DNA of 47,925 nt from a virus (IMGVR_UViG_3300045988_143263); one strand, 5' to 3'. Positions 1 to 47,925 are shown, counted from the stretch's first letter. Notes: generated from the letters alone by a model not told the origin. Made by a program: numbers and translations.

Positions 1-60
1 TAGGAAATTTTTTCCCACCTGTAAAGCACTTTTTATATAAATCTATAATTATATAAGCAC
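1..60 (-). promoter_or_regulatory. 3' half of repeated promoter-leader cassette (partial copy at window start; continues from window end if circular)
   Basis: Near-identical to 38578..38636 and 32196..32253; contains TTTACA -35-like box (reverse strand) and TATATAATTATAGATTTATATAA motif. Confidence 0.5.
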
Positions 61-3059: not shown

Positions 3060-3072
3060 ATGTTCGCTCTTG

Positions 3073-4038: not shown

Positions 4039-4875
4039 GTGCAAAAAAATGGCGATACCTTGTCCGGTGGGCTTACTTTTGAAAATGACTCAATCCTTGC
4101 CTGGATTCGAAATACTGACTGGGCGAAGATTGGATTTAAAAATGATGCCGATGGTGACACTGATTCATACATGTGGTTTGAAACAGGCGACAACGGCAAT
4201 GAATATTTCAAATGGAGAAGCCGCCAGAGCACCACAACAAAAGACCTGATGACGCTGAAATGGGATGCACTAAATATTCTGGTAAATGCCGTCATTAATG
4301 GCAGTCTTGGAGTTGGTACGACGAATGCGTTAGGTGGTAGCTCTATTGTTCTTGGTGATAATGACACCGGATTTAAACAGAATGGAGACGGTATTCTGGA
4401 TGTTTATGCTAATAGTCAGCGTGTATTCCGCTTTCAGAATGGAGTGGCTATTGCTTTTAAAAATATTCAGGCCGGGGATGGTAAAAAATTCACGCTATCC
4501 AGCTCCAACACCTCCACAAAGAATGCAACGTTTAATTTATGGGGTGCTTCAACCCGTCCAGTAGTTGCAGAGTTAGGCGATGAGGCAGGATGGCATTTCT
4601 ATAGCCAGCGAAATACAGATAACTCGGTAATATTTTCTGTTAACGGTCAGATACAGCCCAGCAACTGGGGGAATTTTGATTCACGCTATGTAAAAGATGT
4701 TCGCCTGGGTACGCGTGTTGTTCAATTGATGGCGCGTGGTGGTCGTTATGAAAAAGCCGGACACGCAATTACCGGATTAAGAATCATTGGTGAAGTAGAT
4801 GGCGATGATGAAGCCATCTTCAGACCAATACAAAAATACATCAATGGCACATGGTATAACGTAGCACAGGTGTAA
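4039..4875 (+). CDS. alternative tail-fibre C-terminal variable segment (silent orientation; would fuse to the constant region after inversion)
   Basis: In-frame upstream peptide …LGLQETVN… matches the junction in the active fibre gene; C-terminus RPIQKYINGTWYNVAQV parallels the active fibre's [17 protein letters not shown]. Confidence 0.6.
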   Translation: MQKNGDTLSGGLTFENDSILAWIRNTDWAKIGFKNDADGDTDSYMWFETGDNGNEYFKWRSRQSTTTKDLMTLKWDALNILVNAVINGSLGVGTTNALGGSSIVLGDNDTGFKQNGDGILDVYANSQRVFRFQNGVAIAFKNIQAGDGKKFTLSSSNTSTKNATFNLWGASTRPVVAELGDEAGWHFYSQRNTDNSVIFSVNGQIQPSNWGNFDSRYVKDVRLGTRVVQLMARGGRYEKAGHAITGLRIIGEVDGDDEAIFRPIQKYINGTWYNVAQV

Positions 4876-5434: not shown

Positions 5435-5974
5435 TCATTCTGGTTGTTCGGGAAACGTTACTGGCAGGCTGGAGGTGTCTGTAGATTCGACTTTCTGCGC
5501 ATAGAGCATCCACTCGGTTAATTTTTGTTTATTCTCGTCGGAAATGATGCCCAGCCGTAGCTGTGAGTCCCATAGCTGGGTTTTGTCCCTGACAAGTTGC
5601 AACAGGCTTTGTTTTTCATTTTCCGCTTGTTGTCGCTGCTCTTCCTCGGTATAAGTTCGCTTTATCACCGCGCCATCTTTGAACATCCAGTTACCCGAAA
5701 TATCAGCCCGTCTATTGGCTGTTATATCAGGCAACTCAACAACGCTTAAACCTTCTGGATTAATTACCGATACATCCTTATCAATAGCAACAATAATTCC
5801 CTCTGCTGTGTAAGCTAGCTTTATTGTGTCTTCCTGAAAGTTCTTTTGTTCTTCATACCAGTTTTTACCGTCTTCGGACCATAACCAGACAACGCCTGAG
5901 TTTTTAGTTAACAGGTACTGCTCTTTGGTTTTTGGATTGCCGGGTTTTATATTTTTTAAATGCATCATATTCAA
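5435..5974 (-). CDS. tail-fibre assembly protein (active orientation, U-like)
   Basis: 179 aa; overlaps the tail-fibre stop by 4 nt; paralogue of 4879..5406. Confidence 0.7.
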
Positions 5975-12597: not shown

Positions 12598-12805
12598 TAT
12601 TGCGTCTCCACGGAGGCAAATTGTTTACTGATATTGGCATAACCGGAGCATCAGGAACTTTAAGAATAATTCCCGCAGAAAAAAGCACCGTAAAGCGGTG
12701 CTCAGTATTAGCATCAATAAGAAGATAAGACAGGTACTCATTACCATACAACTTTAACGCGATACTATCCCATGAGTCCCCTTGAACCGTTCTATAATCA
12801 TCCAA
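12587..12805 (-). CDS. tail protein X-like (LysM-type small tail protein)
   Basis: 72 aa; MDDYRTVQGDSWDSIALKLYGNEYL resembles the LysM-like N-terminus of P2 gpX-family proteins. Confidence 0.5.
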   Translation of the reverse strand: MDDYRTVQGDSWDSIALKLYGNEYLSYLLIDANTEHRFTVLFSAGIILKVPDAPVMPISVNNLPPWRRNSVT

Positions 12806-15590
12806 AACTTAATCTCCGTTGTTGGAACATATGAGCACTCAATTTCTTCTCAAAATCAGAATATCCCGCATCTAATGCTCTTTTAGCTGCCGCCTCAGTT
12901 TCCTTTGGTGAACCAGCCGGAAGATTGATTACAGGTGAATAGGTTATTCCACCAGTCACAGCGTTAACGTTCTGGCGAGGTCCAGAAGCCCCGGCGGCAG
13001 ATATCCCGTGAGGTGATAAATTTGATTGCCCGAACTTGGTTGCTATTGCATTCTGTAAGCTGTTATTCCTGCTAACACCTGATGCCAGAGTAGTCATTAT
13101 TGCACCACCTGACTTTGTTAGCTGTGAGAATGGACCTTTTTTCGCGTCAGAGAACGGTAAATACTCACGTACAGAAGAAAAAACGCCTTTCACTTCATTA
13201 ATTAAAGCATTTGCTTTTGATTTTATCCCAATGATTAACGTCTCAATTATTTTTGCACCTGACTCACTCCAGTTTATTCCAGATAAATAAGCCGTTACAG
13301 ATTGGAATGCTCTTATAAAGAGTCCAACTGGCGAAAAACGCATAAAAACAGATACCAGTGTATCTATGATTTTCTTTCCTGTTTCGCTCCAGTTAATGCC
13401 AGAAAGGTAATTTGTTGTAAGTTTAAATGCTTTAATTAAGAACGGAAGCGGAGACATCAATTTAAAAGCACTAATTAATGTACTGTAAATTCTTACTCCT
13501 GCCGAACTCCAGTTTATGTTGGAAAGATAATCCCATGCTTTACCAAACATAGATATAATCCATCCATTGAGATCAAAGTTTAAGATAAAGTTTTTTATAG
13601 CCTCAAACGATTTAACTGTATATTCCTTAACAGAAGGCCAAACTCTGACAGCATAATCTCTGATCTTATCCCAGTTCTGATAGAGCAATATTCCTGCGGC
13701 AACCAGCGCAGATATAGCCATCTGAATCCACCCGAAGGGTGTTAGCTTTGTCGCTACAGATAAAGCCAGCATAGCTACCCTACACGCTATAACCACACTT
13801 TTCATGGTTAGAAACGCACCTGCCGCCATCACTATCTGAGACACAAAATTGGGGTTGTTAGCTACAAATTCACTAATTTTTGTAATCAGCGGAACCAAAA
13901 CACTAAGCGCGGCATTCAAAGCAGGTTGCAAGGCCTGACCAAAACTTAATGATGCATTGCTAGCCTGAATACGTAATTGTTTCAATCGCTCCGCATTATC
14001 TTTCGTTATGTTGGCAAAATCGCGGTCAATAACAGCACTTCCAGCTCCAAGAGATGTTGCTTTGATTCTCTGGTATTCCTTCCAGTTTTGAATCATCGGA
14101 CGAACAAAGTTCTGAACCTGCATATCGCCAAATAGTTCACCAAGTAACTTCTGATCTCCGTTCTTAGTCATTTTCATGACAGAATGCATTGCAGCTTCGA
14201 ATGGATTCTTCCCTTTTTTCTGCGCTGTTGTGACAATTTTATATAAATCTACACCGAAATTTTTCTTTGCTTTTTTTAGTGTTTCAGGGGAAAGTATTTT
14301 TGCCAAAAAGTTGTTCATATTATTAGCAGCCTCATCCGAAGTTGCAGCACCTTTGCGAGCTATCTGCAAAGCTGCCCCCATCGTCGCGGCGGCTTCTTTA
14401 CCTCCCATTTTTAATGCCTGGAACTGAGCACCAAGCACAGGAAGATTTTTGGCCATATCTTTAAATTCAAAGTTTCCCTCTTTCCCTGCCTGAACCAGAA
14501 TCCCCATTGCAGACTTCATTTGAGATGGATCAATCTTCAATGAGTCACTTAATGTAAATGATGCTTTCGAGACATCGAGGATATCAGAGCCAGTAGCTGT
14601 AGCTGTTCGCCCAATAGTTAGTAGATTCGCCTGAGCCTCTTTATAATCCTGCCCAGCAGCGACGAGAAAACCCTGAGCGGCCTGAATATCAGATGCAAAC
14701 TGGTTGGTGGCCGTTCCGGTAACAAGCATCGCCTGCCCCATCGCCTGAACTTCTTCCGGCTTCATATCTGCCGTAAGACCAATCATTTTGTTTTCACGAT
14801 TGAAATTTGCTGCATTGTTAGCAGCAGCAAATGCACCAGCCGCTACAGCACCAGTTTGTAATCCTGACCTTACAAGTTGACTCTTTGCCTCACCAAGATG
14901 CTCTCGCTTCAATTCACGCTGCCTTTCCAACGCGCGGTTTAACTCCTCCTGAGCACGTTTTACTGCAAGAACATTTTTCCGTGCTTCAGCCAACGCATTT
15001 TTATAGCTGTTAATTTTATCAATACGTTGTTTTTCTAATGCCCGGTTAAGTTCCTCCTGCTGTTTTTTCACTTGCTGAACATTTGCTCTGGCTAAAGCCA
15101 AAGCCGTTCTGTAGCGGTTAACCTGCTCAACGCTACGGGCCTGAGCCTCACGATTACGATCAATGCTTGCTTTAAGCTCTTTCTCTCTTGAGGCCAAAGC
15201 TCTGGCAGATGTATCAGCTCCCTGATACGCAGACTTTAAAGCGGCCAGTTCTTCACGCTGAGAACGTAGTGATGCTCGTAAATTTGATGAATGTGTTTTT
15301 GCCTTCTCAAAGTCACGAAGCATCGCTCTGGTTGGATTGGCCGTGTTTTTTATTTGCTTCTGTAACTCTTCAACGCGAGCGGCAGCTTTATGATATTCGA
15401 GGGCAGTCTGTCCAACCTTTACTTTTACAGATTGTAGCTTTTGAATTTCCCCATGTTCTTTCGTTAATCCAGCAAGCTCGGCATTTAATTTAGCAACAGC
15501 CTGATTAGCTGTAGTAAAACTTTTGGGGAGAGAGGCGGCAACTTTGCCGCCAATTTCAAAAGCCAGCTTAAAGTTCTTATTGCTGGCCAT
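12798..15590 (-). CDS. tail tape measure protein
   Basis: 930 aa; long Ala/Gln/Lys-rich coiled-coil N-terminal region, hydrophobic segments and C-terminal repeats; follows the chaperone pair. Confidence 0.8.
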   Translation of the reverse strand: MASNKNFKLAFEIGGKVAASLPKSFTTANQAVAKLNAELAGLTKEHGEIQKLQSVKVKVGQTALEYHKAAARVEELQKQIKNTANPTRAMLRDFEKAKTHSSNLRASLRSQREELAALKSAYQGADTSARALASREKELKASIDRNREAQARSVEQVNRYRTALALARANVQQVKKQQEELNRALEKQRIDKINSYKNALAEARKNVLAVKRAQEELNRALERQRELKREHLGEAKSQLVRSGLQTGAVAAGAFAAANNAANFNRENKMIGLTADMKPEEVQAMGQAMLVTGTATNQFASDIQAAQGFLVAAGQDYKEAQANLLTIGRTATATGSDILDVSKASFTLSDSLKIDPSQMKSAMGILVQAGKEGNFEFKDMAKNLPVLGAQFQALKMGGKEAAATMGAALQIARKGAATSDEAANNMNNFLAKILSPETLKKAKKNFGVDLYKIVTTAQKKGKNPFEAAMHSVMKMTKNGDQKLLGELFGDMQVQNFVRPMIQNWKEYQRIKATSLGAGSAVIDRDFANITKDNAERLKQLRIQASNASLSFGQALQPALNAALSVLVPLITKISEFVANNPNFVSQIVMAAGAFLTMKSVVIACRVAMLALSVATKLTPFGWIQMAISALVAAGILLYQNWDKIRDYAVRVWPSVKEYTVKSFEAIKNFILNFDLNGWIISMFGKAWDYLSNINWSSAGVRIYSTLISAFKLMSPLPFLIKAFKLTTNYLSGINWSETGKKIIDTLVSVFMRFSPVGLFIRAFQSVTAYLSGINWSESGAKIIETLIIGIKSKANALINEVKGVFSSVREYLPFSDAKKGPFSQLTKSGGAIMTTLASGVSRNNSLQNAIATKFGQSNLSPHGISAAGASGPRQNVNAVTGGITYSPVINLPAGSPKETEAAAKRALDAGYSDFEKKLSAHMFQQRRLSFG

Positions 15591-31676: not shown

Positions 31677-31877
31677 TTAATGCTCGCGTCGTCCGGCGAC
31701 AACTTCGGATTTGTATTTCAGGTCGCCCAGCAAGAATTGCAGTTTAAGCATCTTTGCCGCTGTGTAGTTCCCTGATTCCACAACCTCTTTCATGAGGTCA
31801 TAAACGGTCGCTACATCATCAGCCAGGAACTCTTTGCGTTGCTGCTCAGTCGCACGTTTGAAGGAAATACGCATCAC
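31677..31877 (-). CDS. hypothetical protein
   Basis: 66-aa ORF overlapping the upstream gene by 4 nt. Confidence 0.3.
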   Translation of the reverse strand: MMRISFKRATEQQRKEFLADDVATVYDLMKEVVESGNYTAAKMLKLQFLLGDLKYKSEVVAGRREH

Positions 31878-32143
31878 TCATCATCTCCTGCCGCACATAC
31901 AACCTCACAAAAAACATCAGCGGAATGTTTCTCCTTGAACGAATGACGCTCAAAACCGCACTCAATATCAGGCGCAAAAACATCCACCACATACGGTCTT
32001 TCAGAATGTTTGTTTTCCCAACGATAAACCGTAGTGACGTTGAAATGTTTTAACGCTTCACGGAACTCAACGCTGCCCGTCAGGTTTTTTGAGGTCAGGT
32101 ATTGCAGGAGGTTTTTTACTACTTCACGGTCTTGTACTTTCAT
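31874..32143 (-). CDS. hypothetical protein (first gene downstream of a repeated promoter-leader cassette)
   Basis: 89-aa ORF; ATG at 32141..32143 directly follows the conserved leader …ccggagataacccg. Confidence 0.4.
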   Translation of the reverse strand: MKVQDREVVKNLLQYLTSKNLTGSVEFREALKHFNVTTVYRWENKHSERPYVVDVFAPDIECGFERHSFKEKHSADVFCEVVCAAGDDE

Positions 32144-32255
32144 CGGGTTATCTCCGGTTTAACCAGGGCGGGTATCGCTCGGTTTCGGGTATAACCATAG
32201 GAAATTTTTTCCCATCCGTAAAGCACTTTTTATATAAATCTATAATTATATAATT
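32144..32255 (-). promoter_or_regulatory. repeated promoter-leader cassette, copy A
   Basis: Near-identical to 38527..38645 and to window end plus start; minus strand reads TATATAATTATAGATTTATATAAAAAGTGC-TTTACG-17 nt-TATGGT-leader with GGAGA RBS. Confidence 0.5.
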
Positions 32256-32843
32256 CTATGACACTTGCCAGAGAGCATCATGCAACTGGATACCTCCGTT
32301 GCACTGGTTGCCCCAGCCATGCCAGCCATCAGGTAAATCACCGCGAGCAAACAGCTCAATACGAGGAACATCGCCTAACAGCTTTACCAGCTTGTCACGG
32401 ACCACATCAGGCTTCCGAGAATGCTCCAGACGAGGCGATGTAAACGACTGAATGATCCCCGCATCAAGACGTGTCGGTAGTTTGCCTTTCACTGCAAACA
32501 AGCAATCTTCACTGTTTGCACGAGTCATATGCCCCATCCCCATCACCAGCTTATCTGGTTGTCGGCTACCACATTTGTTCCATGTGAAGCCCTTCATGGT
32601 CATCAGCCTGAATCCCCATGCTTTCACCACCAGCAACGCTTCTTCTGGCTGAGTCGGAACCCACCACATGGCCAACAAACACGATTCAGGATTAGCAAGC
32701 TGCCAGACAGGAATACGAGCAATATCCTCAGCTTTCATCGTTGGATACTTAAAACCAGCGCCACGATTCCCATCCTTACACTTGTCTTTGTATTCCCAGG
32801 GGGGATCTGCATAAATCAGATTAAACAATGCAATTGCCTCCAT
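32256..32843 (-). CDS. MT-A70 family N6-adenine DNA methyltransferase
   Basis: 195 aa; catalytic DPPW motif (LIYADPPWEY). Confidence 0.75.
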   Translation of the reverse strand: MEAIALFNLIYADPPWEYKDKCKDGNRGAGFKYPTMKAEDIARIPVWQLANPESCLLAMWWVPTQPEEALLVVKAWGFRLMTMKGFTWNKCGSRQPDKLVMGMGHMTRANSEDCLFAVKGKLPTRLDAGIIQSFTSPRLEHSRKPDVVRDKLVKLLGDVPRIELFARGDLPDGWHGWGNQCNGGIQLHDALWQVS

Positions 32844-33151
32844 GTTAGTTGTGTCTCCGGCGCTTATCTCCGGCAGTCATAACGCTGGCCAGCTCTACAG
32901 CAAACACAACGAAAAGGGCACTAACCAGACTGATTAATGCCCTTGCCTGTTGTGTGCCGGATATCGCCCGACAACGCTGTTTTGGTAACACGGCTACAGT
33001 TCCGTGCCGCTCCAGCTTTTACCCCTTTGCGGATAACAGGCCCTGCCTGTAACTTAGCCCCACGTTCGCCCGAAATGCGCACCAGGCACGCATAAAGATG
33101 AGCACGAAGGAAGTAACTCCACCGCGCTTATCTTTATGTGTGAGAGTGAAT

Positions 33152-33227
33152 TGGTGGCCCCTACCGGATTTGAACCGATGACCGTGCGATTATGAGTCGC
33201 CTGCTCTAACCACTGAGCTAAGGGGCC
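33152..33227 (-). tRNA. tRNA with CAU anticodon (tRNA-Ile2/Met-like)
   Basis: 76 nt; cloverleaf with acceptor GGCCCCU/AGGGGCC, GCUC/GAGC D-stem, anticodon loop CUCAUAA, GGUUCAAAUCC T-arm and 3' CCA; 5' half resembles E. coli ileX from memory. Confidence 0.8.
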
Positions 33228-33396
33228 ATATTTGATCTGTTTGTCTGGTGTGGCGCCGCGCACGAAAATCCCAGCCAATAAATTCAGGATTTTTGGGCGC
33301 GGCGGCATATCAGACAAACATGGTTGATGCGTGCGCTAATGAGAAAAGCGCATAGAATGTTGTAACTATATATTTATATAATTATAGAAATATATA

Positions 33397-33606
33397 TTAC
33401 TTTGGACAGTTGATTTCCCATGCCCTGTTATGAGCCAGAATATCTTTCTTTGTCTGGCGGTCCATAACATCGATATCGTGATCAGTCAGGTAGATGGGCT
33501 TTACCCAATCACAGGCGGTATCAACCACCACCGGGACGCTTCCACGACTCCCGCAGCTCGCGATCAACATCGTCATCAGCCATATGGTTAACACTCTGCT
33601 GTACAT
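33397..33606 (-). CDS. Rz1-like outer-membrane lipoprotein spanin (o-spanin)
   Basis: 69 aa; signal peptide with lipobox LIASC; overlaps the 3' end of the Rz-like gene in another frame. Confidence 0.55.
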   Translation of the reverse strand: MYSRVLTIWLMTMLIASCGSRGSVPVVVDTACDWVKPIYLTDHDIDVMDRQTKKDILAHNRAWEINCPK

Positions 33607-36804: not shown

Positions 36805-37103
36805 TCCTCATCTGCAACGGGGGTGTTCCGCTCCAGCACCTTGCCCGCATCGGCGATCAGGTTTGCCAGACTCTTGTCTGAAATCTTCGTTACCGGAGTC
36901 GTTGGTGGCTCAACCTGCCCGATAGGTTTTATCGTGCTCAAAAGGAGGCGACGGCGGGAAAGTGGTGCCCCACAACGACGGCCATCTTCCTTGCGATATG
37001 TTTCTTTCGGACCAACACACCAGGTTGTCGGCGTTTCGCGCAACTTCACTCTTTTCTCACCATCATTGGTAATGATTATTCCGGTATGGGTTTTGATGCT
37101 CAT
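36738..37103 (-). CDS. hypothetical protein
   Basis: 121-aa ORF. Confidence 0.3.
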   Translation of the reverse strand: MSIKTHTGIIITNDGEKRVKLRETPTTWCVGPKETYRKEDGRRCGAPLSRRRLLLSTIKPIGQVEPPTTPVTKISDKSLANLIADAGKVLERNTPVADEEWWQDFRAAMLELQERRREELK

Positions 37104-37381
37104 GCCACAGCCCCTCTCAACGGCTTAACTTTGGCTAATAAGGTGTTAAACAACATGGAGTTAGGATTCATGCCAAATGGCAATTCCGGTTTAGCGGAGT
37201 AGTACAGGCAACCATTTATTTTCCTGGTTGTTATCTGTCCTTCGGCAACCATGCTTCTCAGTCTGCAACGCATAGAGTTCTGCGACACACCAATGTGCTC
37301 CGCGATTACGTCCACTTTTGAACATGGGTGATCGGTCAGGAAATTAATCACATCTTGGGGGTTAATAATTTTGCGTTTCAT
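37100..37381 (-). CDS. putative winged-helix DNA-binding protein
   Basis: ~93 aa from MKRKIINPQD; wHTH-like segment VDVIAEHIGVSQNSMRCRLRSMVAEGQI. Confidence 0.35.
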   Translation of the reverse strand: MKRKIINPQDVINFLTDHPCSKVDVIAEHIGVSQNSMRCRLRSMVAEGQITTRKINGCLYYSAKPELPFGMNPNSMLFNTLLAKVKPLRGAVA

Positions 37382-37420
37382 TGTCGAGGCGTCCTTATAC
37401 ATTTATATAAATATATAATT

Positions 37421-37440
37421 CTATATACGGCGGGAGACGT
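37421..37440. terminator. GC-rich hairpin downstream of 37459..38526 (possible terminator/attenuator)
   Basis: cggcggga-gacg-tcccgccg, 8-bp perfect stem; no clean U-tract. Confidence 0.3.
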
Positions 37441-37458: not shown

Positions 37459-38526
37459 TCAGGCTTTCAATAGCGATTCTTTTAAATATCGGGCATCAGC
37501 CAGGGCGTTTGGAGTAATCTTGCGAACCCATGCATTACGGGTTGGACTCCACTTAAAGGCGCGTGATTTAAGCAGCGAACGAATGTTTGCCTCTGGTTTG
37601 CCAGGGAAATAAAACAGGATGCGGTTATCCTCTGGATCTATCTCCATAGAAAAGCCGTCGTATTCTTCGCGCTGTGCTCCTGTTACAGACTTGACCGATT
37701 CAAGCTCCTTAATACGGCTCTGTAGTCGTTTGATTTCGGCGTTATTGTTGCTCAGTGCGTATGAAGGGAATCCGATGCGCCCACAGAAATCTCCGGCCAG
37801 TAACTCTTTGGCTTCGCTTTCTGTAAACCTGAGATCGATTAATGCAGAAAGCTGCTGTATTTGGTCTTTTTTGTATTTGCGAATGGCCTTATTTGCGGCC
37901 TTCATTTTGACGTGTGACTTCATGCAGCCTTGCAGCTTACGAAGCAACTTAAATAGCGCATCAGGATCATCAGACGAAATTCCATTACGCCCAACACCTG
38001 CGGCTTTGCTCTCGTAGTGTGATGCTTTACTTTCGCATTCAACAAACGCTTTTCTGAATAACGCATCAGCTTTAGACAAACGGCGGCGATGGCCTTTCGC
38101 GCTATAATGGTCAACTAAAATCGGCTGGCCTAACGGGATCACATCCAACAGGTCATGCGCTCGCTTATGCGCTACCGCACCTTCTTTTCTGGCTTTTTCT
38201 GCACGAGCAATATATCGGGCAAGACGCGCGTTCTGGCGTTCCTGATAGGTGTTTACGTAATCATCTCCGCGCTGCTGCTGTTCAAGCCATGCTTTGCGCA
38301 GATCTTCTGTTACGTCCACCAGCTCCGCAGGGATACAACCTGTTTGGGCTTCATAAGAGTAACCATCCTCATAGATGCGCCCATCGTCTTCAACAAAGAA
38401 AAAGGTTTCGTGCTCATCGCTTTTGACCATACGACCATTAACATGGCGTAATAGGTAGCCAGTATCAGTGCTCAACAGGCTGTTAGGGTTGTTGATCCAG
38501 TCAGAAATAATTACTTGTTTATTCAT
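37459..38526 (-). CDS. DUF3560-like phage protein (start trimmed to MNKQVIISD)
   Basis: ~355 aa; ATG at 38524..38526 directly follows the conserved leader of the repeated cassette, which the ORF-track N-terminal extension would read through. Confidence 0.45.
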   Translation of the reverse strand: MNKQVIISDWINNPNSLLSTDTGYLLRHVNGRMVKSDEHETFFFVEDDGRIYEDGYSYEAQTGCIPAELVDVTEDLRKAWLEQQQRGDDYVNTYQERQNARLARYIARAEKARKEGAVAHKRAHDLLDVIPLGQPILVDHYSAKGHRRRLSKADALFRKAFVECESKASHYESKAAGVGRNGISSDDPDALFKLLRKLQGCMKSHVKMKAANKAIRKYKKDQIQQLSALIDLRFTESEAKELLAGDFCGRIGFPSYALSNNNAEIKRLQSRIKELESVKSVTGAQREEYDGFSMEIDPEDNRILFYFPGKPEANIRSLLKSRAFKWSPTRNAWVRKITPNALADARYLKESLLKA

Positions 38527-38647
38527 CAGATTTCTCCGGTTTAACCAGGGCGGGTATCGCTCGGTTTCGGGTATAACCTTAGGAAATTTTTTCCCACCTG
38601 TAAAGCACTTTTTATATAAATCTATAATTATATATTTATAGATTTTC
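38527..38647 (-). promoter_or_regulatory. repeated promoter-leader cassette, copy B (immediately downstream of Q-like gene)
   Basis: -35 TTTACA (rc of 38599..38604), 17-nt spacer, -10 TAAGGT (rc of 38576..38581), AT-rich upstream motif, ~45-nt leader with GGAGA RBS. Confidence 0.5.
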
Positions 38648-41047: not shown

Positions 41048-41065
41048 TTAACGAACTCCAGTTAA

Positions 41066-41183
41066 ACCACGATATGTGGTATTAAAACCACATATCGTGA
41101 GTTTTTCAATGGGCGAAACAAAAAATAACCTTCTATTTGTGGTCCACCTCTCGTCTTACCATGTGAAAACCACTAAATGTGGT
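41066..41183. promoter_or_regulatory. immunity operator/promoter region with ACCAC-N5-GTGGT sites
   Basis: ACCACGATATGTGGT (41066..41080), ACCACATATCGTGAG (41087..41101), ACCACTAAATGTGGT (41169..41183); TATAAAT -10-like box at 41188..41194. Confidence 0.5.
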
Positions 41184-41220
41184 AATGTATAAATAACCCA
41201 CCATTCACGATTGATGAGAC

Positions 41221-41877
41221 ATGAAAAGCAACGACGAGAACATCAAGAAAGAAATAGGTCTGCGCATTCAGACTCTACGGAAACAATCCGGCATGACTGC
41301 CGGAGATCTCCAGCAAGTCACTGGAATAGGCTTAAGCACCTTGCAGAACTATGAGGCCGGATTAAGACAACCATCTATACCTGCCATCAAGAAAATCGCG
41401 CACGCCCTGAAAGCATCAGCGCCTTATATCGCGTGCTTAACAGATAACCCGTTCCCACCCCAGAATACTAACGCTCCTGTTATTCCTGGGCTTGTAGCTA
41501 TAAAAAATGACATAGCATCGCACGCCGGAGAAAAGCCAGTGCTGGCGATAGAACAGGAGATTCTACGAAGCAAGAACATCAACCCATCGTCTCTGTCAGT
41601 TCTCCAGAGCAACGATGAGTTAATGTCACCAACAATATCCCCTGGCTCCCAAGTCCTGATTGATACAGACGATACAGAGATTCATGAGGGGATCTATGCC
41701 CTTGAAGACAGAAATGGCCTGGTTGTTTTGAGGCACTGTAGAGTCATACCGGGTGACAATGCTGTTATGCTGTCAACCGAAAGGGATGCTGAAATGAACA
41801 CTAAGCATCTGAATAACGAGGAATTTAAGCGTTATAAAGTTCTTGGCCGCGTAGTTAGTGTTGTCAACTGGTTATGA
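41221..41877 (+). CDS. CI-like prophage repressor (N-terminal HTH, C-terminal S24 LexA-type peptidase domain)
   Basis: 218 aa; HTH TAGDLQQVTGIGLSTLQNYEAG and C-terminal S24-like fold. Confidence 0.75.
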   Translation: MKSNDENIKKEIGLRIQTLRKQSGMTAGDLQQVTGIGLSTLQNYEAGLRQPSIPAIKKIAHALKASAPYIACLTDNPFPPQNTNAPVIPGLVAIKNDIASHAGEKPVLAIEQEILRSKNINPSSLSVLQSNDELMSPTISPGSQVLIDTDDTEIHEGIYALEDRNGLVVLRHCRVIPGDNAVMLSTERDAEMNTKHLNNEEFKRYKVLGRVVSVVNWL

Positions 41878-42360: not shown

Positions 42361-42475
42361 GCCCGCTTATATGATTATAGATTTATATAATTATATAAAA
42401 CGCTTTCCATCCGCCAAAAAGTTGGTTATGCTTACCTCGTTCTATAAATATAGATTTATAGAATTATATAACCAA
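42361..42475. repeat. AT-rich iteron cluster upstream of parA (candidate centromere/operator)
   Basis: ATGATTATAGATTTATATAATTATATAA and ATAAATATAGATTTATAGAATTATATAA blocks. Confidence 0.5.
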
Positions 42476-42494
42476 ACACATGGAGTCTCGACAA

Positions 42495-43148
42495 ATGACT
42501 ATCTCTGTAGGTATTTTCAACGGAAAAGGCGGCGTAACCAAATCAACAATTGCCCGTGCTTTAGCAGTTGCTTATGCAAAGGCTGGCTGGAATGTATGCC
42601 TGATCGATATGGATGTGCTTAACGGAACGGTAACACGTTGGGTACAACGCAGAATGGCCAACAATATCGAACCAGCAATCGCGGCGCAGCCGTGCGGCAC
42701 ACCATCACAAGTCCAGAAAATCATCGAATCAGAAGTATACGACCTGGTTATCGTCGATGGCGGTGCCTACGCATCTGAATCAGTACCGAAGCTCTCTGAA
42801 TTTCTGGATATGGTTATTTTGCCAACCAGATTCTCTACCGATGACCTGGAAACCACCGTTAACACAGCTCACGGCATCGTTAAAAAGGGTGTACCAATCA
42901 AGAAAATTTGCATGGTGTTTTCCGGCGCGGCTGAAAACGAAGCTGACTATATTGAAGCCCAAGAGTACCTGGCTAATACGCCATACTTTGTTGTCGATAA
43001 GTACATTCCCCACAAGCCAGCTCTGAGCAAAGCTCAGGATAAGGGCTTAAGCCTCATTGAGTGCTCATACGTTGCGCCACGCAAAAAGGCAGACGACGTT
43101 ATTCAGGGGATTATCAACCAGCTTGAGGCTCTGACTACTGCCGCGTAA
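42495..43148 (+). CDS. parA: ParA-family partition ATPase
   Basis: Deviant Walker A box NGKGGVTKST ten residues from the chosen start; start set at the second ATG (GGAG RBS). Confidence 0.8.
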   Translation: MTISVGIFNGKGGVTKSTIARALAVAYAKAGWNVCLIDMDVLNGTVTRWVQRRMANNIEPAIAAQPCGTPSQVQKIIESEVYDLVIVDGGAYASESVPKLSEFLDMVILPTRFSTDDLETTVNTAHGIVKKGVPIKKICMVFSGAAENEADYIEAQEYLANTPYFVVDKYIPHKPALSKAQDKGLSLIECSYVAPRKKADDVIQGIINQLEALTTAA

Positions 43149-43180
43149 TATATAATTATAGTTTTATAGATTTATATAAG
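43147..43180. repeat. AT-rich iteron block between parA and the ParG-like gene
   Basis: ATATATAATTATAGTTTTATAGATTTATATAA. Confidence 0.45.
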
Positions 43181-43191
43181 AGGGGATACAC

Positions 43192-43440
43192 ATGGCCGCA
43201 CCATCAAAACCACCAAAGAAGAACAGCAAAGGCGTACCGCCATCGATCGAACAACCGCAGGTTTTCGACCCGACTGAAACGCCAACCAGAACCAAATCAG
43301 GTGGGGCACAAATGGCGTTTAACGTCGACCCTGAATTTAAACGCGAGTACAAAACGTTCGCCAGCTCAATGGATATGTCATTGAAAGAAGTGCTGACAAA
43401 GTCTTTTGAGTTACTCAAGGCTCAATACAACCAGAAGTAA
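43192..43440 (+). CDS. ParG-like ribbon-helix-helix centromere-binding protein
   Basis: 82 aa; disordered basic N-terminus and C-terminal RHH-like segment MAFNVDPEFKREYKTFASSMDMSLKEVL; directly downstream of parA. Confidence 0.5.
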   Translation: MAAPSKPPKKNSKGVPPSIEQPQVFDPTETPTRTKSGGAQMAFNVDPEFKREYKTFASSMDMSLKEVLTKSFELLKAQYNQK

Positions 43441-43502: not shown

Positions 43503-43652
43503 ATGTCCGAGCAACAATATACACGGTTACTGAAAACTCGTCTAACCGACCTCAAACGGCTGCAAGCTGGCTGCTTATTTGCCCTGCTATCCACCAGGCC
43601 AGAATGGGTACGTGAAGCAGTTCTGAAAGGCTTAATGCGCTCCAGCGTTTAA
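43503..43652 (+). CDS. small hypothetical protein
   Basis: 49 aa from ATG at 43503. Confidence 0.25.
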   Translation: MSEQQYTRLLKTRLTDLKRLQAGCLFALLSTRPEWVREAVLKGLMRSSV

Positions 43653-43662: not shown

Positions 43663-43686
43663 AAAAAAAGGCCCCCGAAGGGGCCT
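43663..43686 (-). terminator. rho-independent terminator (minus strand; hairpin shared with plus-strand gene end)
   Basis: ggcccc-cgaa-ggggcc 7-bp stem; A7 run on plus strand gives a U7 tail on the minus strand. Confidence 0.5.
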
Positions 43687-43691
43687 AATCG

Positions 43692-43814
43692 CTACTTGCT
43701 GCTAATGTTTATCGTCACATTCAGAGCGTTATCAGTAATCTTCCAACCCTCCCCATGTGGCGTAAACAAAGCTCCAGTAACAACGATAAAAATACACATG
43801 TAGTATTTTTTCAT
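43692..43814 (-). CDS. small hydrophobic peptide (signal-peptide or membrane-like)
   Basis: 41 aa MKKYYMCIFIVVTGALFTPHGEGWKITDNALNVTINISSK; followed by a terminator; ~170-nt structured upstream leader. Confidence 0.3.
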   Translation of the reverse strand: MKKYYMCIFIVVTGALFTPHGEGWKITDNALNVTINISSK

Positions 43815-44231
43815 TGTGTGGCCCTTACAGGCCGTTTCACGGCATCCCCACCGACGAAAATGACGCGAGAGCAAGCACGCTGTTTGTGCCTGCGTGGTAC
43901 GGCAAGTGGATAATCCTTTCCTGAAAGTCGGTGCCCGGTTGCGAATCGGCGAAAAGGCCCCGCGTAATGTTACACCGCAGCCCCTTCATAATGAAGGGAT
44001 AAAAATGTATTGTTTTTCATTAAGTTAAATACACACCACAAAAATCACTCGCTTTTGTGCTCTAACAAACCAAATTTATTTGGACAATTTTATTCAGTTA
44101 GGTAAGAATATGATTGCTGTTTGTGCTTGCGTGGTTGTATTTATACAACAACGTAATGCTGAAAGGACCGCGAATCCGATCAGCACGAAAGAACCGTCCT
44201 CAATAGGGCGGTTTTTTTGTTTCTTCACTCA

Positions 44232-44959: not shown

Positions 44960-45056
44960 CGCCATTGGTGGACACTTTCCGAGCCGTAGCAAAATCTACG
45001 GCCGGGATTGGAACCCCGTAGACACAATGGCGCATACCGCGTTAGCGGTTTTTTTA
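44960..45056 (+). ncRNA. candidate c4-like regulatory small RNA
   Basis: Three predicted hairpins (44984..45001, 45002..45018, 45036..45048) ending in T7; two blocks are complementary to the downstream leader at 45128..45148. Confidence 0.35.
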
Positions 45057-45221
45057 TGCGTAAAGCACTGCTACACCCAAATTATGGTGGGGCGTGCGGG
45101 GGAGTCGTAAGACTCGCCGGTTCGTCATTGTGTCCGGTAGTTCCAACCCTGCACGTCTCACCACCCAATGATTGGAACCTGACGGTGGTGAGTATCCTTA
45201 ACCTTTAAGGGAATCATCACA

Positions 45222-45413
45222 ATGACAAACCTACCCCATGACTATTACGTCAACCTCGTAAAGATCCTTCTCAAGAAAGCCTCATACGCCGATAAATTAC
45301 GCCTGGCTGAAATCATCGAGCGCGAAGCTATGCGCATCGCCAGCAACGATAACGCTGTTTCTGACGCAAAAATCTCCCTCGTAACCAAAGTAGTTATGGG
45401 AGGTGCAAAATGA
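45222..45413 (+). CDS. small protein translationally coupled to antirepressor gene (Icd-like position)
   Basis: 63 aa; AAGGGA RBS; stop overlaps the antirepressor start (ATGA). Confidence 0.35.
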   Translation: MTNLPHDYYVNLVKILLKKASYADKLRLAEIIEREAMRIASNDNAVSDAKISLVTKVVMGGAK

Positions 45414-46552
45414 AAACGCTTCCGACCGTTAACACCCTACAGCCTATCCTGCATAACCAGATCCCCGTTATCACTAGTGAACTTCTGGCGCAGTTATACG
45501 GAACAAAAATCAAAAACATTTCTGATAATTTTCTGAACAACACGACGCGATTCGTAGCCGGAAAGCATTACTTTAAAATTGAAAAAAACGAATTACGCGA
45601 GTTCAAGAACAGACCCGAAACAATCGGGTTAGTTGGTAAAAATGCCCGCTCCCTAATTCTCTGGACCGAACGCGGGGCTGCACGTCACGCTAAAATGCTC
45701 GAAACCGATCAGGCGTGGGATGTATTCGAACGGCTGGAAGACTGCTATTTCAACCAGAACGCGCAAACGGCCGCGACCGTAACCGTCTCGCCAAACAATG
45801 CTCGTGAGGTTGTCGATACGCTCAACGCCAAACCGATGTTTTACATTAAGGTGTGCAATAACGAGCCACTCACAACCTCAGCCGATGTTGCCCAGGCATT
45901 CAGCACCACAAACAATTCCATCGTTATGGCCATCGATGCGTTACGCATTCCTCGCACAGCTGCGGCGCGTCACTTCTTTAAAGAACAACGACCGCTGGAA
46001 GGAAGCGACCGCGAAATAACAATCTATCGCATGACAAAAGACGGATTTACCTTGCTCATGGAAAGTATCGACGGTCCAGGCGTGAAGGATATCAAGCTGG
46101 CCTACATTGAAGCCTTTAACGCTATCAGCAGCGTGTTAAAAACACAGTACGAGCGCGATCTGGCTAAACGACTGTACCAGGAAAAAACGATTATCCGCGC
46201 GGCAACAGAGCATAATCGGCTATTAACGGAACCGAACTACAGGAAGGAACTAATCAAGGAGTTTGACAAGGCAACAGGGAAAACCAAAGCGGCGCTAAAT
46301 CTGCCAGCAATGACTCAGGAAAATGTGATATCAGCCTTACTTCTTGATCTGCTCAGAAACGCCAGAGCACTGATCAGCTTTGACGAAAACCTGAATCCTC
46401 AGCTCAAGCTACTACCACCGACAGGCAAAGTAGTCGACCAGGCAGATCACAACAGCATACTCAGCGTACTGGATGCAAACCTGCCAGCCAGGACACTACA
46501 GGAGCTGATAAAAACATGTGCTGATAAGCTCGCACAGAAAAGCAGACCATAA
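45410..46552 (+). CDS. phage antirepressor (Ant-like, ORF6N/Rha-type domains)
   Basis: 380 aa; N-terminal segment ITSELLAQLYGTKIKNISDNF…FKIEKNEL and a second Rha-like region LTTSADVAQAFSTTNNSIVMAIDAL. Confidence 0.5.
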   Translation: MKTLPTVNTLQPILHNQIPVITSELLAQLYGTKIKNISDNFLNNTTRFVAGKHYFKIEKNELREFKNRPETIGLVGKNARSLILWTERGAARHAKMLETDQAWDVFERLEDCYFNQNAQTAATVTVSPNNAREVVDTLNAKPMFYIKVCNNEPLTTSADVAQAFSTTNNSIVMAIDALRIPRTAAARHFFKEQRPLEGSDREITIYRMTKDGFTLLMESIDGPGVKDIKLAYIEAFNAISSVLKTQYERDLAKRLYQEKTIIRAATEHNRLLTEPNYRKELIKEFDKATGKTKAALNLPAMTQENVISALLLDLLRNARALISFDENLNPQLKLLPPTGKVVDQADHNSILSVLDANLPARTLQELIKTCADKLAQKSRP

Positions 46553-47157: not shown

Positions 47158-47430
47158 TCATTTGATCCCTTGTTCCAATTCTGCCGACACTTTAACCTTT
47201 TCCCATACAAGGGTTTGCAGCCTTAACAGAATCGCATCTTTATCAAGGTGTGAAAGATCCTTCACCATATCGTCAAACGACAGAACGCGAATGGCCATCT
47301 CAATGACCCTCGGCGGCTCCCCCTTCTCATATCGCTTATATGTAGCCAACGATATCCCAAATTCTTCGGCGGCTCGCTCCTGCGTCCAGTTCATCCCACG
47401 ACGCCATAATTTCAATTCATAACCCGTCAT
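47158..47430 (-). CDS. HTH XRE-family regulator (start trimmed to MTGYELK)
   Basis: ~90 aa; HTH GMNWTQERAAEEFGISLATYKRYEKG; strong GAGGAGG RBS upstream of ATG 47430; ORF-track start at 47463 is a TTG. Confidence 0.5.
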   Translation of the reverse strand: MTGYELKLWRRGMNWTQERAAEEFGISLATYKRYEKGEPPRVIEMAIRVLSFDDMVKDLSHLDKDAILLRLQTLVWEKVKVSAELEQGIK

Positions 47431-47458
47431 AGCACCCTCCTCGCACAATATTAACACT

Positions 47459-47485
47459 CGCAAAGTGTCAAAATGACACTTTGCG
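47459..47485. promoter_or_regulatory. 27-bp perfect palindrome operator overlapping a TTGACA -35 box
   Basis: cgcaaagtgtca-aaa-tgacactttgcg; the minus strand reads TTGACA within the left arm; ~30 nt upstream of the HTH gene. Confidence 0.5.
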
Positions 47486-47493: not shown

Positions 47494-47874
47494 TTACTTA
47501 ACGAGGAATAAAAATGGTTTATTGTTCGGCGGTGTAATCGGGGCTGGCTCGCTTTTGCTCATGCGATCAGTGTACCAGGCCAACTCCTTGTCAAAGTAAG
47601 CCTGATTAAAATAGGCCATGAATGTAGTTTCAAATCCATAACGACCGCTAATACGCAGCATCTGATTGCCGTTCTCTGTTTCCAGATATACCTGGGCACG
47701 TTCCTGATTCTCCTTCAGCCAGGTTAAAGCCTCATCGCATGAGGACACACGATACTCATCATCGTAGCAGTCATCGATGCGGCTTGAGGAAGAACGGCAA
47801 ATCACGCCAACAGAACCAGCCAGGATAGTTTGAATTTTAAGGAAAGCGTTTTTGCGGATTTTAATCATGCTCAT
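47494..47874 (-). CDS. hypothetical protein (first gene downstream of a repeated promoter-leader cassette)
   Basis: 126-aa ORF; ATG at 47872..47874 directly follows the conserved leader …ccggagataacccg. Confidence 0.4.
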   Translation of the reverse strand: MSMIKIRKNAFLKIQTILAGSVGVICRSSSSRIDDCYDDEYRVSSCDEALTWLKENQERAQVYLETENGNQMLRISGRYGFETTFMAYFNQAYFDKELAWYTDRMSKSEPAPITPPNNKPFLFLVK

Positions 47875-47925
47875 CGGGTTATCTCCGGTTTAACCAGGGC
47901 GGGTATCGCTCGGTTTCGGGTATAA
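47875..47925 (-). promoter_or_regulatory. 5' half of repeated promoter-leader cassette (partial copy at window end)
   Basis: Identical to 32144..32194 and near-identical to 38527..38578; continues into window positions 1..60 if the replicon is circular. Confidence 0.5.

What the first reader, a model, noticed from the sequence alone, without database searches (positions are those of the whole stretch)
42361..43180. AT-rich TATAGATTTATATAA motif family at eight or more loci, concentrated around parA/parG and inside the promoter cassettes
Variants of ATTATAGATTTATATAA occur at 34..56, 32231..32253, 38614..38647, 33361..33395, 37400..37430, 42373..42400, 42445..42470 and 43148..43180. The blocks flanking parA and preceding the ParG-like gene look like centromere/operator iterons of a type Ib partition system. 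The same motif is also embedded upstream of the -35 box of every promoter-cassette copy and near the tRNA. This suggests either a dispersed centromere or a single DNA-binding protein (the RHH ParG-like protein is the obvious candidate) coupling partition to promoter control across the genome.
Basis: partly seen in the sequence, partly recalled or inferred. Interest (0 to 1): 0.6.

Follow-up and report, generated by a model that had tools for sequence, protein, structure and literature searches.

The report
Partition-protein binding arrays scattered over phage-plasmid promoters
Eight 32-bp AT-rich arrays in this E. coli phage-plasmid are most likely binding sites for the small DNA-binding partner of its ParA partition ATPase, and five of them sit at phage promoters far from the partition genes, so one protein may link plasmid inheritance to phage gene control.

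Summary
The window is a nearly complete ~48 kb E. coli myovirus phage-plasmid. It holds exactly eight arrays of three to four tandem 8-bp units (WTATAKAW, core TTATATAA), all intergenic; none occurred in 100 shuffles.

Three arrays bracket a small ParA operon. One ends 5 nt upstream of the -35, one starts at about +1, and one abuts the ribosome-binding site of the 82-aa downstream gene. That protein has a disordered basic tail plus a ribbon-helix-helix-like (RHH-like) domain, supported only by weak profile matches. The other five arrays lie upstream of the -35 of three copies of a promoter cassette, upstream of tRNA-Met, and against the ribosome-binding site of a MarR-like gene.

Comparative evidence points to the ParA partner protein:
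- Ordinary plasmids sharing only ParA, this protein and a toxin-antitoxin pair have the same three-block layout.
- Two Serratia phage-plasmids keep the homologous cassettes but carry a different array type at both par and the cassettes.
- The CI-like repressor has separate operators.

Binding and the direction of regulation are untested. The closest analogues are omega of pSM19035, ParG/parH of TP228 and the dispersed N15 centromeres. I rate it a new variant of a known kind.

The parts
42367..42398 (+). par array 1: four 8-bp units (TTATATGA TTATAGAT TTATATAA TTATATAA). It follows the terminator hairpin of the preceding gene and ends 5 nt upstream of the parA -35 box.
42404..42432 (+). Putative parA promoter: TTTCCA, 17 nt, TATGCT. 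It lies between arrays 1 and 2. It matches 8 of 12 consensus positions, below the threshold of the scan tool.
   Evidence: read from the sequence; the same layout appears in Serratia (TTTACA, 17 nt, TAATCT); not listed
42440..42471 (+). par array 2: four units (TTCTATAA ATATAGAT TTATAGAA TTATATAA). It starts at about +1 of the putative parA promoter and ends 23 nt before the parA ATG.
42495..43148 (+). parA: 217-aa ATPase with a deviant Walker A motif and no N-terminal DNA-binding domain (type Ib-like).
   Evidence: Pfam CbiA/ParA/MipZ; distant match to TP228 ParF 4dzz, E=3e-4; annotated as a ParA family protein in relatives
43148..43179 (+). par array 3: four units (ATATATAA TTATAGTT TTATAGAT TTATATAA). 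It overlaps the last base of the parA stop codon (43146-43148) and ends 12 nt before the ATG of the RHH gene, abutting its ribosome-binding site.
43192..43440 (+). Gene for the 82-aa putative centromere-binding protein. It has a disordered basic tail (residues 1-40, with K13-G14 invariant among its closer relatives), a putative strand around 41-46, and helices at 47-59 and 64-80. It is RHH-like.
38612..38643 (-). Array of cassette B: four units, ending 7 nt upstream of the -35-like TTTACA (38604-38599). The -10-like box is TAAGGT (38581-38576). The cassette drives the DUF3560/primase-like gene 37459-38526.
32230..32261 (-). Array of cassette C: four units upstream of TTTACG, 17 nt, TATGGT. The cassette drives gene 31874-32143 and, downstream on the same strand, the packaging and structural genes.
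   Evidence: gene order
33..56 (-). Array of cassette A: three clear units. The rest of the cassette lies at the other end of the window (47871-47925) and drives genes 47494-47874 and 47158-47463 (HTH_3).
33366..33397 (-). Array upstream of tRNA-Met (33152-33227): four units, directly followed by TTACAA.
37395..37426 (-). Array that follows a terminator-like hairpin and ends 13 nt before the probable ATG (37381) of a MarR-like regulator gene (37100-37381). It abuts the ribosome-binding site, as par array 3 does.

Best explanation
The eight arrays are binding sites for the 82-aa protein encoded directly downstream of parA. This protein is a ParG/omega-like ribbon-helix-helix centromere-binding protein with a flexible basic N-terminal tail.

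Inferred by analogy with ParG, MetJ and omega: one dimer reads each 8-bp unit (WTATAKAW) through its beta-ribbon, and neighbouring dimers coat three to four tandem units cooperatively.

At the par operon, three arrays clamp the weak parA promoter from both sides and precede the protein's own gene. Together they would serve as autoregulatory operator and centromere. The coated DNA would recruit nucleoid-bound ParA-ATP, and the tail would stimulate its ATPase.

The other five arrays place the same protein at phage and plasmid promoters:
- immediately upstream of the -35 of all three copies of a conserved promoter cassette (the DUF3560/primase-like gene, the operon leading into the packaging and structural genes, and an operon with an HTH gene);
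- upstream of tRNA-Met;
- against the ribosome-binding site of a MarR-like gene.

I think these sites most likely act as extra centromere sites and also damp those promoters while the element lives as a plasmid, for example by occupying the UP-element position. The positions, the periodicity, the co-variation and the link to the par module are shown by sequence. Binding, cooperativity, partition activity and the sign of regulation are inferred.
For: 1. The arrays are real, periodic and intergenic.

2. The gene pair fits a type Ib partition module. ParA is small and has no HTH domain. The 82-aa protein's family has about 60 clusters at 50% identity. Of 49 members scanned, 17 hit Pfam RHH_10, 11 hit Antitox_RHH and 1 hits ParG. 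hhalign of the family against ParG 1P94 gives E=1.9e-4 with the strand and both helices in register. AlphaFold models a disordered tail plus two confident helices.

3. Homologues lie directly downstream of small ParA genes in Pantoea, Saprospiraceae, Methylococcales and Caldilineaceae. Each has its own short repeats upstream of parA.

4. Ordinary plasmids have the same layout of array, promoter, array, parA, array, RHH gene, with TA-rich units. These are L014/L016 (24 kb, conjugative) and L015 (IncFII). Of the window's proteins, L016 shares clearly only ParA and a RelE/HTH toxin-antitoxin pair, plus weak partial matches to RepA and to the CI-like HTH domain. Its RHH protein is a family member found with P0021.

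5. Co-variation. Salmonella L003 keeps TA-type arrays at all eight syntenic loci. There ParA is 95% and the RHH protein 91% identical, while the CI-like protein is 66% and the MarR-like protein 65%. Two Serratia phage-plasmids (RHH protein 38-45% identical) keep homologous cassette promoters and leaders. They carry TTTAAATA/AATCTTTA-type arrays both at par and at the cassettes. Dispersed arrays share 0.25-0.40 of their 9-mers with par arrays of their own specificity group and 0-0.03 with the other group.

6. The beta-strand sequence tracks the unit sequence. M[A/S]FNV goes with TTATATAA-type units. MNFN[V/M] goes with TTTAAATA-type units, and this vocabulary is shared by Pantoea and S. marcescens. 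LNFKV goes with CG-containing TTCGTT/AACGAA boxes.

7. Other regulators are poor candidates. The CI-like repressor has its own ACCAC-N6-GTGGT palindromes at 41063-41184 and no array there. The MarR-like gene is absent from the Serratia elements. The toxin-antitoxin types differ between the two Serratia elements although they share an array type.

8. Precedents. ParG binds one dimer per box at 8-bp spacing (PMC3130281). Omega has six parS arrays overlapping three promoters and needs at least four contiguous repeats (PMC9499535).
Against: - No binding, footprint, ChIP or stability data exist for this protein or this family.
- The three cassette arrays within one genome could have arisen by duplication of the whole cassette, so within the window they are not independent observations.
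- Co-variation shows one lineage-specific binder that travels with the par module. It does not strictly prove that this binder is the RHH protein.
- The predicted cassette and parA promoters are weak and were not picked up by the consensus scan, so promoter assignments are provisional.
- The direction of any regulatory effect is a guess.
Confidence: 0.72

Rival explanations
1. The dispersed arrays are bound by the RHH protein but have no regulatory role. They are only extra centromere sites, or passengers copied along with the cassette, and only the par-proximal arrays matter for expression.
For: N15 uses four separate centromere sites (PMC7205306). The three cassettes are about 108-nt near-identical copies that include the array. 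The ordinary plasmid L016 has arrays in intergenic gaps inside its type IV secretion operon where no promoter is obvious.
Against: In Serratia the cassette core and leader are conserved, but the array has been replaced by the lineage's own type at the same place relative to the -35 box. That replacement needs selection for an array at that spot. Arrays also abut ribosome-binding sites (par array 3, the MarR-like gene, and virB10 in L016), positions that bear on expression.
Confidence: 0.15
2. The arrays are protein-independent AT-rich promoter DNA, that is UP elements or bent or easily melted DNA that boosts weak promoters.
For: Four or five arrays occupy roughly -38 to -70 of promoters with weak -10 boxes (TAAGGT, TATGCT). 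The arrays are almost pure A+T.
Against: - The arrays have a strict 8-bp periodicity of a defined unit.
- Three arrays are not upstream of any -35 box; they lie at about +1 or against a ribosome-binding site.
- The unit sequence switches between lineages living in closely related hosts, in step with the par locus.
- The same arrays bracket parA on unrelated plasmids.
Confidence: 0.05
3. Another regulator encoded by the element binds the arrays: the CI-like repressor, the MarR-like protein, one of the small HTH proteins, or the HigA-like antitoxin.
For: The element encodes several HTH proteins. One MarR-like gene is itself preceded by an array. The RelE/HTH toxin-antitoxin pair is shared with the TA-type ordinary plasmids.
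Against: - The CI-like repressor has separate palindromic operators, and no array lies in its own control region.
- The MarR-like gene and the 47158-47463 HTH gene have no detectable homologue in the Serratia elements, which still have arrays.
- No array precedes the toxin-antitoxin operon, and the two Serratia elements share an array type despite having MazF-type and HicAB-type systems.
- Ordinary plasmids with the arrays lack the phage regulators.
Confidence: 0.05
4. Host nucleoid proteins (H-NS, IHF, Fis) bind the arrays and silence or bend these promoters.
For: TA-step-rich AT DNA is a typical target of such proteins.
Against: These host proteins are nearly identical in Escherichia, Salmonella and Serratia, yet the array sequence is lineage-specific and tracks the par module. 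This does not exclude additional opportunistic H-NS binding.
Confidence: 0.03

Closest known systems
Omega/delta/parS of pSM19035 (Streptococcus; type Ib-like partition with an RHH ParB that is also a global regulator)
   Same: Both have a small ParA and a small RHH protein with an N-terminal tail. Both have several separate arrays of short tandem repeats that overlap promoter regions of more than one operon and act as operator and centromere at once. About four contiguous units make a functional block (PMC9499535).
   Different: The pSM19035 units are non-palindromic 7-bp heptads (WATCACW); here they are 8-bp WTATAKAW. No sequence similarity between the proteins was detected. The host is Gram-negative. 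The extra sites here are at phage promoters, a tRNA gene and a MarR-like gene, not at copy-control genes. Nothing has been tested experimentally.
ParF/ParG/parH-OF of plasmid TP228 (type Ib)
   Same: Both have a small ParA followed by an RHH protein with a flexible tail. In both, arrays upstream of the operon have an 8-bp repeat spacing; in TP228 this is a 4-bp box plus a 4-bp AT-rich spacer with one dimer per box. The arrays act as both operator and centromere (PMC3130281). The RHH domains align in register.
   Different: The box sequence differs (ACTC against TATA-type). TP228 has 20 boxes in one region, whereas this element has 3-4 units in each of eight places. The window protein fails Pfam ParG. 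ParA matches ParF only at E=3e-4. TP228 has no dispersed sites.
Dispersed sop centromeres of the linear phage-plasmid N15 (type Ia)
   Same: Both are phage-plasmids whose centromere sites are scattered over the genome rather than clustered at the partition operon (IR1-4, PMC7205306). The N15 partition system has been reported to affect late gene expression (Ravin et al. 2008, known here only from its title in the reference list of PMC11652158).
   Different: N15 uses SopA/SopB, with an HTH ParB and single palindromic sites. This element uses a small ParA and an RHH-like protein with tandem 8-bp arrays, and it keeps three arrays at the par operon itself.
MetJ and its tandem 8-bp metboxes (own knowledge)
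   Same: An RHH dimer binds each 8-bp palindromic unit, with two to five tandem units bound cooperatively. This is the same geometry as the TTATATAA arrays.
   Different: MetJ is a chromosomal metabolic repressor that needs a co-repressor. It has no ParA partner and no centromere role.

Membership tests
Type Ib plasmid partition system | Small Walker-type ParA (about 200-220 aa) with a deviant Walker A motif and no N-terminal HTH domain | tested here: met
   The protein is 217 aa with KGGVTKS at residues 10-16. It hits only CbiA/ParA/MipZ-type domains. It is a distant relative of ParF 4dzz.
Type Ib plasmid partition system | Small centromere-binding protein with an RHH fold and a flexible N-terminal tail, encoded directly downstream of parA | tested here: inconclusive
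   Gene order is met, with a 43-nt gap after parA. The fold is supported at family level: 17 of 49 members hit RHH_10 and 1 hits ParG, hhalign against ParG gives E=1.9e-4 at 47% probability, and AlphaFold models a disordered tail plus two helices. The window protein itself hits no Pfam family, and structure searches found nothing.
Type Ib plasmid partition system | Centromere made of short tandem repeats next to the operon, which also acts as the operator | tested here: met
   Three arrays of four 8-bp units bracket the promoter and precede the second gene. The same layout is found on ordinary plasmids and in distant homologues. This is a test of sequence layout only.
Type Ib plasmid partition system | The protein binds the repeats and the module stabilises a plasmid | not testable with these tools
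   Needs EMSA or footprinting and plasmid-loss assays.
ParG family (Pfam PF09274) | Sequence match to the ParG profile above the curated threshold | tested here: not met
   The window protein has no Pfam hit. Only 1 of 49 family members touches PF09274, at E=0.018. I therefore treat it as an analogue or distant relative, not a ParG family member.
Omega-type global regulator (pSM19035) | Binding arrays at promoters of several separate operons | tested here: met
   Arrays lie at parA, the RHH gene, three promoter cassettes, tRNA-Met and the MarR-like gene. This shows position only, not regulation.
Omega-type global regulator (pSM19035) | 7-bp WATCACW heptad repeats | tested here: not met
   The units are 8 bp and read WTATAKAW.
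N15-type dispersed centromere | SopA/SopB type Ia proteins with an HTH ParB and palindromic IR sites | tested here: not met
   ParA is small and has no HTH domain, and its partner is an 82-aa RHH-like protein. Only the dispersal of the sites is shared.
Sigma-70 UP element | AT-rich element at about -40 to -60, acting without a dedicated protein and independent of element lineage | tested here: not met
   Three of the eight arrays are not upstream of a -35 box. The unit sequence is lineage-specific and co-varies with the par locus.

The most novel reading that the evidence does not exclude
The partition protein doubles as a sensor of the plasmid state for the phage. When unbound, the AT-rich arrays act as UP-like enhancers of the otherwise weak cassette promoters. 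When coated by the RHH protein, they shut that boost off. Cassette-driven genes (primase-like gene, packaging and structural operon) would then fire on infection of a naive cell, before the protein accumulates, or when the protein is titrated by runaway replication. During stable plasmid carriage they would stay quiet. This layer of control would be separate from the CI-like repressor and the C4/isrK antirepressor circuit. Because arrays also occur inside the transfer operon of an ordinary plasmid of the same par family, it may be a general property of that family.
Probability: 0.3. Interest if true: 0.75.

Novelty: new variant of a known kind. Interest (0 to 1): 0.55.

Why it matters
This phage-plasmid family occurs in about 1.4% of complete E. 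coli genomes (74 of 5426). A 2026 preprint describes a p-p47 family of 47-49 kb E. coli phage-plasmids that spread blaTEM-1 by lysogenisation (10.64898/2026.08.19.745698). It is probably the same family, though I could not confirm this by accession. That paper does not mention partition.

The ParA/RHH module is uncharacterised: the RHH protein has no Pfam family, and its PHROG family has unknown function. Yet it is found on at least 171 plasmid records, including conjugative resistance plasmids.

If the RHH protein binds all eight arrays, it gives:
- a defined centromere/operator code (an 8-bp unit with lineage-specific variants) that predicts incompatibility groups;
- a simple handle for curing or destabilising these elements, since cloned arrays should titrate the protein;
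- a second, mechanistically different example, after N15, of a phage-plasmid wiring its partition protein into phage promoters.

The natural specificity variants (TTATATAA, TTTAAATA and TTCGTT types, paired with MAFNV, MNFNV and LNFKV strands) form a ready-made set for studying how RHH proteins recognise DNA.

Tried and rejected
- **PDB sequence searches.** The close-relative profile found nothing relevant. The wide profile placed ParG third at E=0.77.
- **The search for related loci.** The narrower alignment A3 worked.
- **pSLy3 group.** I first guessed the element belonged to it. I rejected this because pSLy3 belongs to the SSU5 supercommunity.
- **Replication iterons.** Rejected. No array lies near repA (2211-3188), and the probable family replicates with RepA under predicted CopA/CopT antisense control.
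- **pB171 par2.** I could not compare it because its record is not in the collection.
- **N15 paper.** The 2008 paper on N15 late gene expression is not held.
- **Integrated relatives without par.** I looked for them as a natural knock-out. The cassette is almost only on plasmids (214 of 217 places), so this test was not possible.
- **47-nt exact cassette match on plasmid L018.** It is a fragment cut by IS26 and carried along with the toxin-antitoxin module, so it is not independent evidence.
- **Phage collection.** It added only Rhizobium phages with a partial match.

Full report
**What the window is.** The 47,925-base window is almost a whole circular phage-plasmid. It is 95-99% identical to about 60 non-mobilizable E. 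coli plasmids of 46-52 kb, including the 48.5 kb plasmid of ATCC 25922, and to three Yersinia myophages. Annotated relatives carry RepA, ParA, a RelE/HTH toxin-antitoxin pair, a CI-like repressor, a Rha-type protein, and a full set of head, contractile-tail and lysis genes. The window ends cut through one copy of a repeated promoter cassette. The cassette is present in 74 of 5426 complete E. coli genomes, nearly always on plasmids and usually three times per genome. A 2026 preprint describes a 'p-p47' family of 47-49 kb E. coli phage-plasmids with RepA under predicted CopA/CopT antisense control (10.64898/2026.08.19.745698). The descriptions fit and this is probably the same family, but I could not confirm it by accession. 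That paper says nothing about partition or AT-rich repeats.

**The observation.** The motif is real and far above chance: 30 matches at up to 3 mismatches against 2.6 expected, five of them exact. The arrays are built from 8-bp units in register. Self-similarity peaks at shifts of 8 and 16 bases. A degenerate four-unit pattern, (WTMTAKAW)x4 at >=27 of 32 positions, finds exactly eight clusters in the window and none in 100 dinucleotide-preserving shuffles. Each array has three to four units. The commonest unit is the palindrome TTATATAA, and TTATAGAT/ATCTATAA and TTATAGAA/TTCTATAA occur in either orientation. All eight arrays are intergenic.

**Anatomy.** There are two position classes.
- *Class 1, just upstream of a -35-like box.* par array 1 ends 5 nt before TTTCCA, 17 nt, TATGCT. 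The three cassette arrays end 7 nt before TTTAC(A/G), 17 nt, TA(A/T)GGT. The tRNA-Met array is directly followed by TTACAA.
- *Class 2, against a ribosome-binding site or at the transcription start.* par array 2 begins at about +1 of the parA promoter. par array 3 ends 12 nt before the ATG of the 82-aa gene. The array at 37395-37426 ends 13 nt before the probable ATG of a MarR-like gene (phrog_1687).

Several arrays directly follow a terminator-like hairpin of the upstream gene. The promoters are weak by consensus and were not reported by the scan tool, so they remain provisional.

**The proteins.** ParA (42495-43148) is 217 aa. It has a deviant Walker A motif near its N-terminus and only ParA/CbiA/MipZ-type Pfam matches. 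It is a distant relative of TP228 ParF. This is the type Ib pattern.

The 82-aa product of 43192-43440 has no Pfam hit of its own, and its PHROG family has unknown function. An exhaustive HMMER search found about 60 clusters of 74-92 aa relatives. They share a basic proline-rich N-terminal tail with a conserved K-G. Their C-terminus has the pattern LNFKV..EF.RE.K.FA...D.SM.ELL...FELYK.

The evidence for an RHH fold is as follows:
- Of 49 members scanned, 17 weakly match Pfam RHH_10, 11 match Antitox_RHH, 3 match 56B_RHH and 1 matches ParG.
- Profile comparison with ParG gives E=1.9e-4 at 47% probability, with the strand and both helices in register.
- AlphaFold models residues 1-40 as disordered and 47-59 and 64-80 as confident helices.
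- Fold searches returned nothing.

The RHH assignment is therefore well motivated but not proven.

**The arrays belong to the par module.** Homologues of the 82-aa protein lie directly downstream of small ParA genes in Pantoea, Saprospiraceae, Methylococcales and Caldilineaceae. Each has its own short repeats upstream of parA, often in 8-bp register and abutting the ribosome-binding site.

tblastn with a family member finds the protein on 171 plasmid records, 34 of them conjugative. In two such plasmids without phage genes, the layout is the same as in the window: array, promoter, array, parA, array, RHH gene, with TA-rich units such as CTATAAAAATATAATTATA. These are a 24 kb MOBC/MPF_T plasmid and a 21.8 kb IncFII plasmid.

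Of the window's proteins, the 24 kb plasmid shares clearly only ParA (45%) and the RelE/HTH pair, plus weak partial matches to RepA and to the CI-like HTH domain. Its RHH protein is a family member. It also has two more arrays in intergenic gaps of its type IV secretion operon, so dispersal is not peculiar to the phage-plasmid.

**Co-variation.** The Salmonella relative L003 has diverged to about 60-75% protein identity over most of the shared backbone but keeps ParA at 95% and the RHH protein at 91%. It has TA-type arrays at all eight syntenic loci, with units shuffled but the vocabulary kept.

Two Serratia phage-plasmids (L004 with a siphovirus-type tail, L017 with a contractile tail) share the backbone of CI-like gene, hypothetical gene, parA, RHH gene and Rha gene, plus the early operon. 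Their RHH proteins are 38-45% identical to the window's. They carry clearly homologous promoter cassettes:
- the same -35/spacer/-10 layout;
- the same inverted repeat in the spacer (GGAAAAAATTTCC against AGGAAAAAAAGTCCT);
- the same leader, ending AACCGGAGATAA.CCGATG.

The array upstream of the -35 is of a different type (TTTAAATA, AAATATTT, AATCTTTA). That same type brackets their parA and precedes their RHH gene.

Dispersed arrays share 25-40% of their 9-mers with par arrays of their own specificity group and 0-3% with the other group.

The putative DNA-reading strand tracks the unit type:
- M[A/S]FNV goes with TTATATAA-type units.
- MNFN[V/M] goes with TTTAAATA-type units. Pantoea and S. 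marcescens have the same strand and share array words.
- LNFKV goes with CG-containing TTCGTT/AACGAA or TTCGCT/AGCGAA boxes.

A lysine in place of an asparagine going with G/C-containing boxes fits general base-contact preferences (own knowledge). This point is suggestive only.

**Other candidate binders.**
- The CI-like repressor (41221-41877, HTH_3 plus a weak S24 match) has three or four ACCAC-N6-GTGGT palindromes in its own divergent control region, and no array is there.
- The MarR-like gene and the HTH gene of cassette A have no detectable homologue in the Serratia elements.
- The antitoxin is shared with the TA-type ordinary plasmids, but no array precedes the toxin-antitoxin operon. 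The two Serratia elements have different toxin-antitoxin systems but the same array type.
- Host nucleoid proteins do not explain a lineage-specific sequence.
- Replication iterons are unlikely, since no array lies near repA.

**Most likely mechanism.** The RHH protein coats each 32-bp array, one dimer per 8-bp unit. This matches ParG at its boxes with 8-bp spacing (PMC3130281) and omega at its heptads, where four contiguous repeats are the functional minimum (PMC9499535).

At par, the arrays clamp the promoter from -38 upstream and from +1 downstream, and a third array sits before the protein's own gene. This would give autoregulation and a centromere that recruits ParA through the basic tail.

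The five remote arrays would add centromere sites and place the same protein at phage promoters. I favour damping of these promoters in the plasmid state, because the protein must be present then and the cassettes lead into replication-like and virion genes. The sign of the effect is not determined by any result here.

**Comparison with known systems and novelty.** The logic is that of omega in pSM19035, where the arrays serve as both centromere and operator at several promoters. The scattering of sites resembles N15, whose centromere sites are dispersed (PMC7205306). The geometry is that of ParG and MetJ.

It is not a member of the Pfam ParG family, it does not use heptads, and it is not a Sop system. 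The protein family and its 8-bp code are undescribed as far as I could find. I rate it a new variant of a known kind, of moderate interest. The main value is a clean, directly testable system with natural specificity variants, in a clinically widespread element.

Noticed in passing
window 32140-32261, 38522-38643, 47871-47925 plus 1-56: There are three ~108-nt copies of a promoter cassette. Each has the array, TTTAC(A/G), a 17-nt spacer holding the inverted repeat GGAAAAAATTTCC centred near -22, TA(A/T)GGT, a conserved structured leader, and AACCGGAGA..ATG. Homologous cassettes with the same spacer repeat and leader occur three times in each Serratia phage-plasmid (L004, L017). The spacer repeat may be the site of a second, conserved regulator; from memory, it resembles the layout of P1 late promoters.
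   Followed up: partly
window 44983-45168 (+), then 45222-46552: Rfam finds isrK (44983-45055) and a C4 antisense RNA (45080-45168) just upstream of a 63-aa ORF and an ORF6N/Rha-domain protein. This looks like a P1 immI-like antisense-controlled antirepressor module, separate from the CI-like repressor.
   Followed up: no
window 43664-43962 (-): A full-length ryfA RNA match (136.6 bits, gathering score 80) lies just downstream of the par operon. It may be a small toxin/antisense stabilisation locus.
   Followed up: no
window 41063-41184: Three or four palindromes of the form AAACCAC-N6-GTGGTA lie in the divergent region between the early operon and the CI-like gene. They are probably CI operators and are clearly different from the AT arrays.
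   Followed up: partly
window 14214-14253 (-), inside the tape-measure gene 12798-15590: A partial cassette-like stretch (TGTAGATTTATATAA, 1 mismatch, followed by AATTGTCACAACAGCGCAGAAAAAA) is 71% identical to the cassette core over 38 nt. It does not reach the array threshold. It could be an internal promoter or a relic.
   Followed up: no
window 43503-43652 (+): A small ORF of about 49 aa, preceded by a GC-rich hairpin, directly follows the RHH gene. It is conserved in Salmonella (88%) and in both Serratia phage-plasmids (47-49%). It has no Pfam hit, and the ordinary plasmid L014 has no such gene next to its par genes. It may be a third gene of the phage-plasmid par region.
   Followed up: partly
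window 42482-42497 and 37379-37394; L004 27714-27729; L017 38093-38107: A conserved translation-start context, (G)GA..C(C/T)TCGACAA(A)TG, follows the class-2 arrays of parA and of the MarR-like gene. It also follows the arrays before a Lar-family gene and another gene in Serratia. The array-plus-leader may therefore move as a unit.
   Followed up: no
L016 (NZ_CP122627.1) 4777-4822 and 6554-6591: This ordinary 24 kb conjugative plasmid has the same ParA/RHH family. It carries two further par-type arrays in intergenic gaps of its type IV secretion operon, one of them against the virB10 ribosome-binding site. Dispersed arrays are therefore a trait of the par family, not only of phage-plasmids.
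   Followed up: partly
L018 (CP100008.1) 7441-7487: A 47-nt exact copy of the cassette -35 region plus array abuts an IS26 terminal repeat, next to a RelE/HTH toxin-antitoxin pair, on a cfr plasmid. It is a captured fragment of a phage-plasmid of this family.
   Followed up: yes
window 33054-33317 (-) and 37100-37402 (-): Two entries in the mechanical ORF list are misleading. The first overlaps tRNA-Met (33152-33227) and is probably spurious. The second starts at an ATG inside the array, and the real start is probably 37381 (93 aa, as annotated in Salmonella).
   Followed up: yes
window 7499-7891 and 13249-13533: There are in-frame tandem repeats inside structural genes: three 93-nt copies at spacings of 168 and 132 nt in the 831-aa ORF 5971-8466, and three 45-nt copies at 120-nt spacing in the tape-measure gene.
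   Followed up: no
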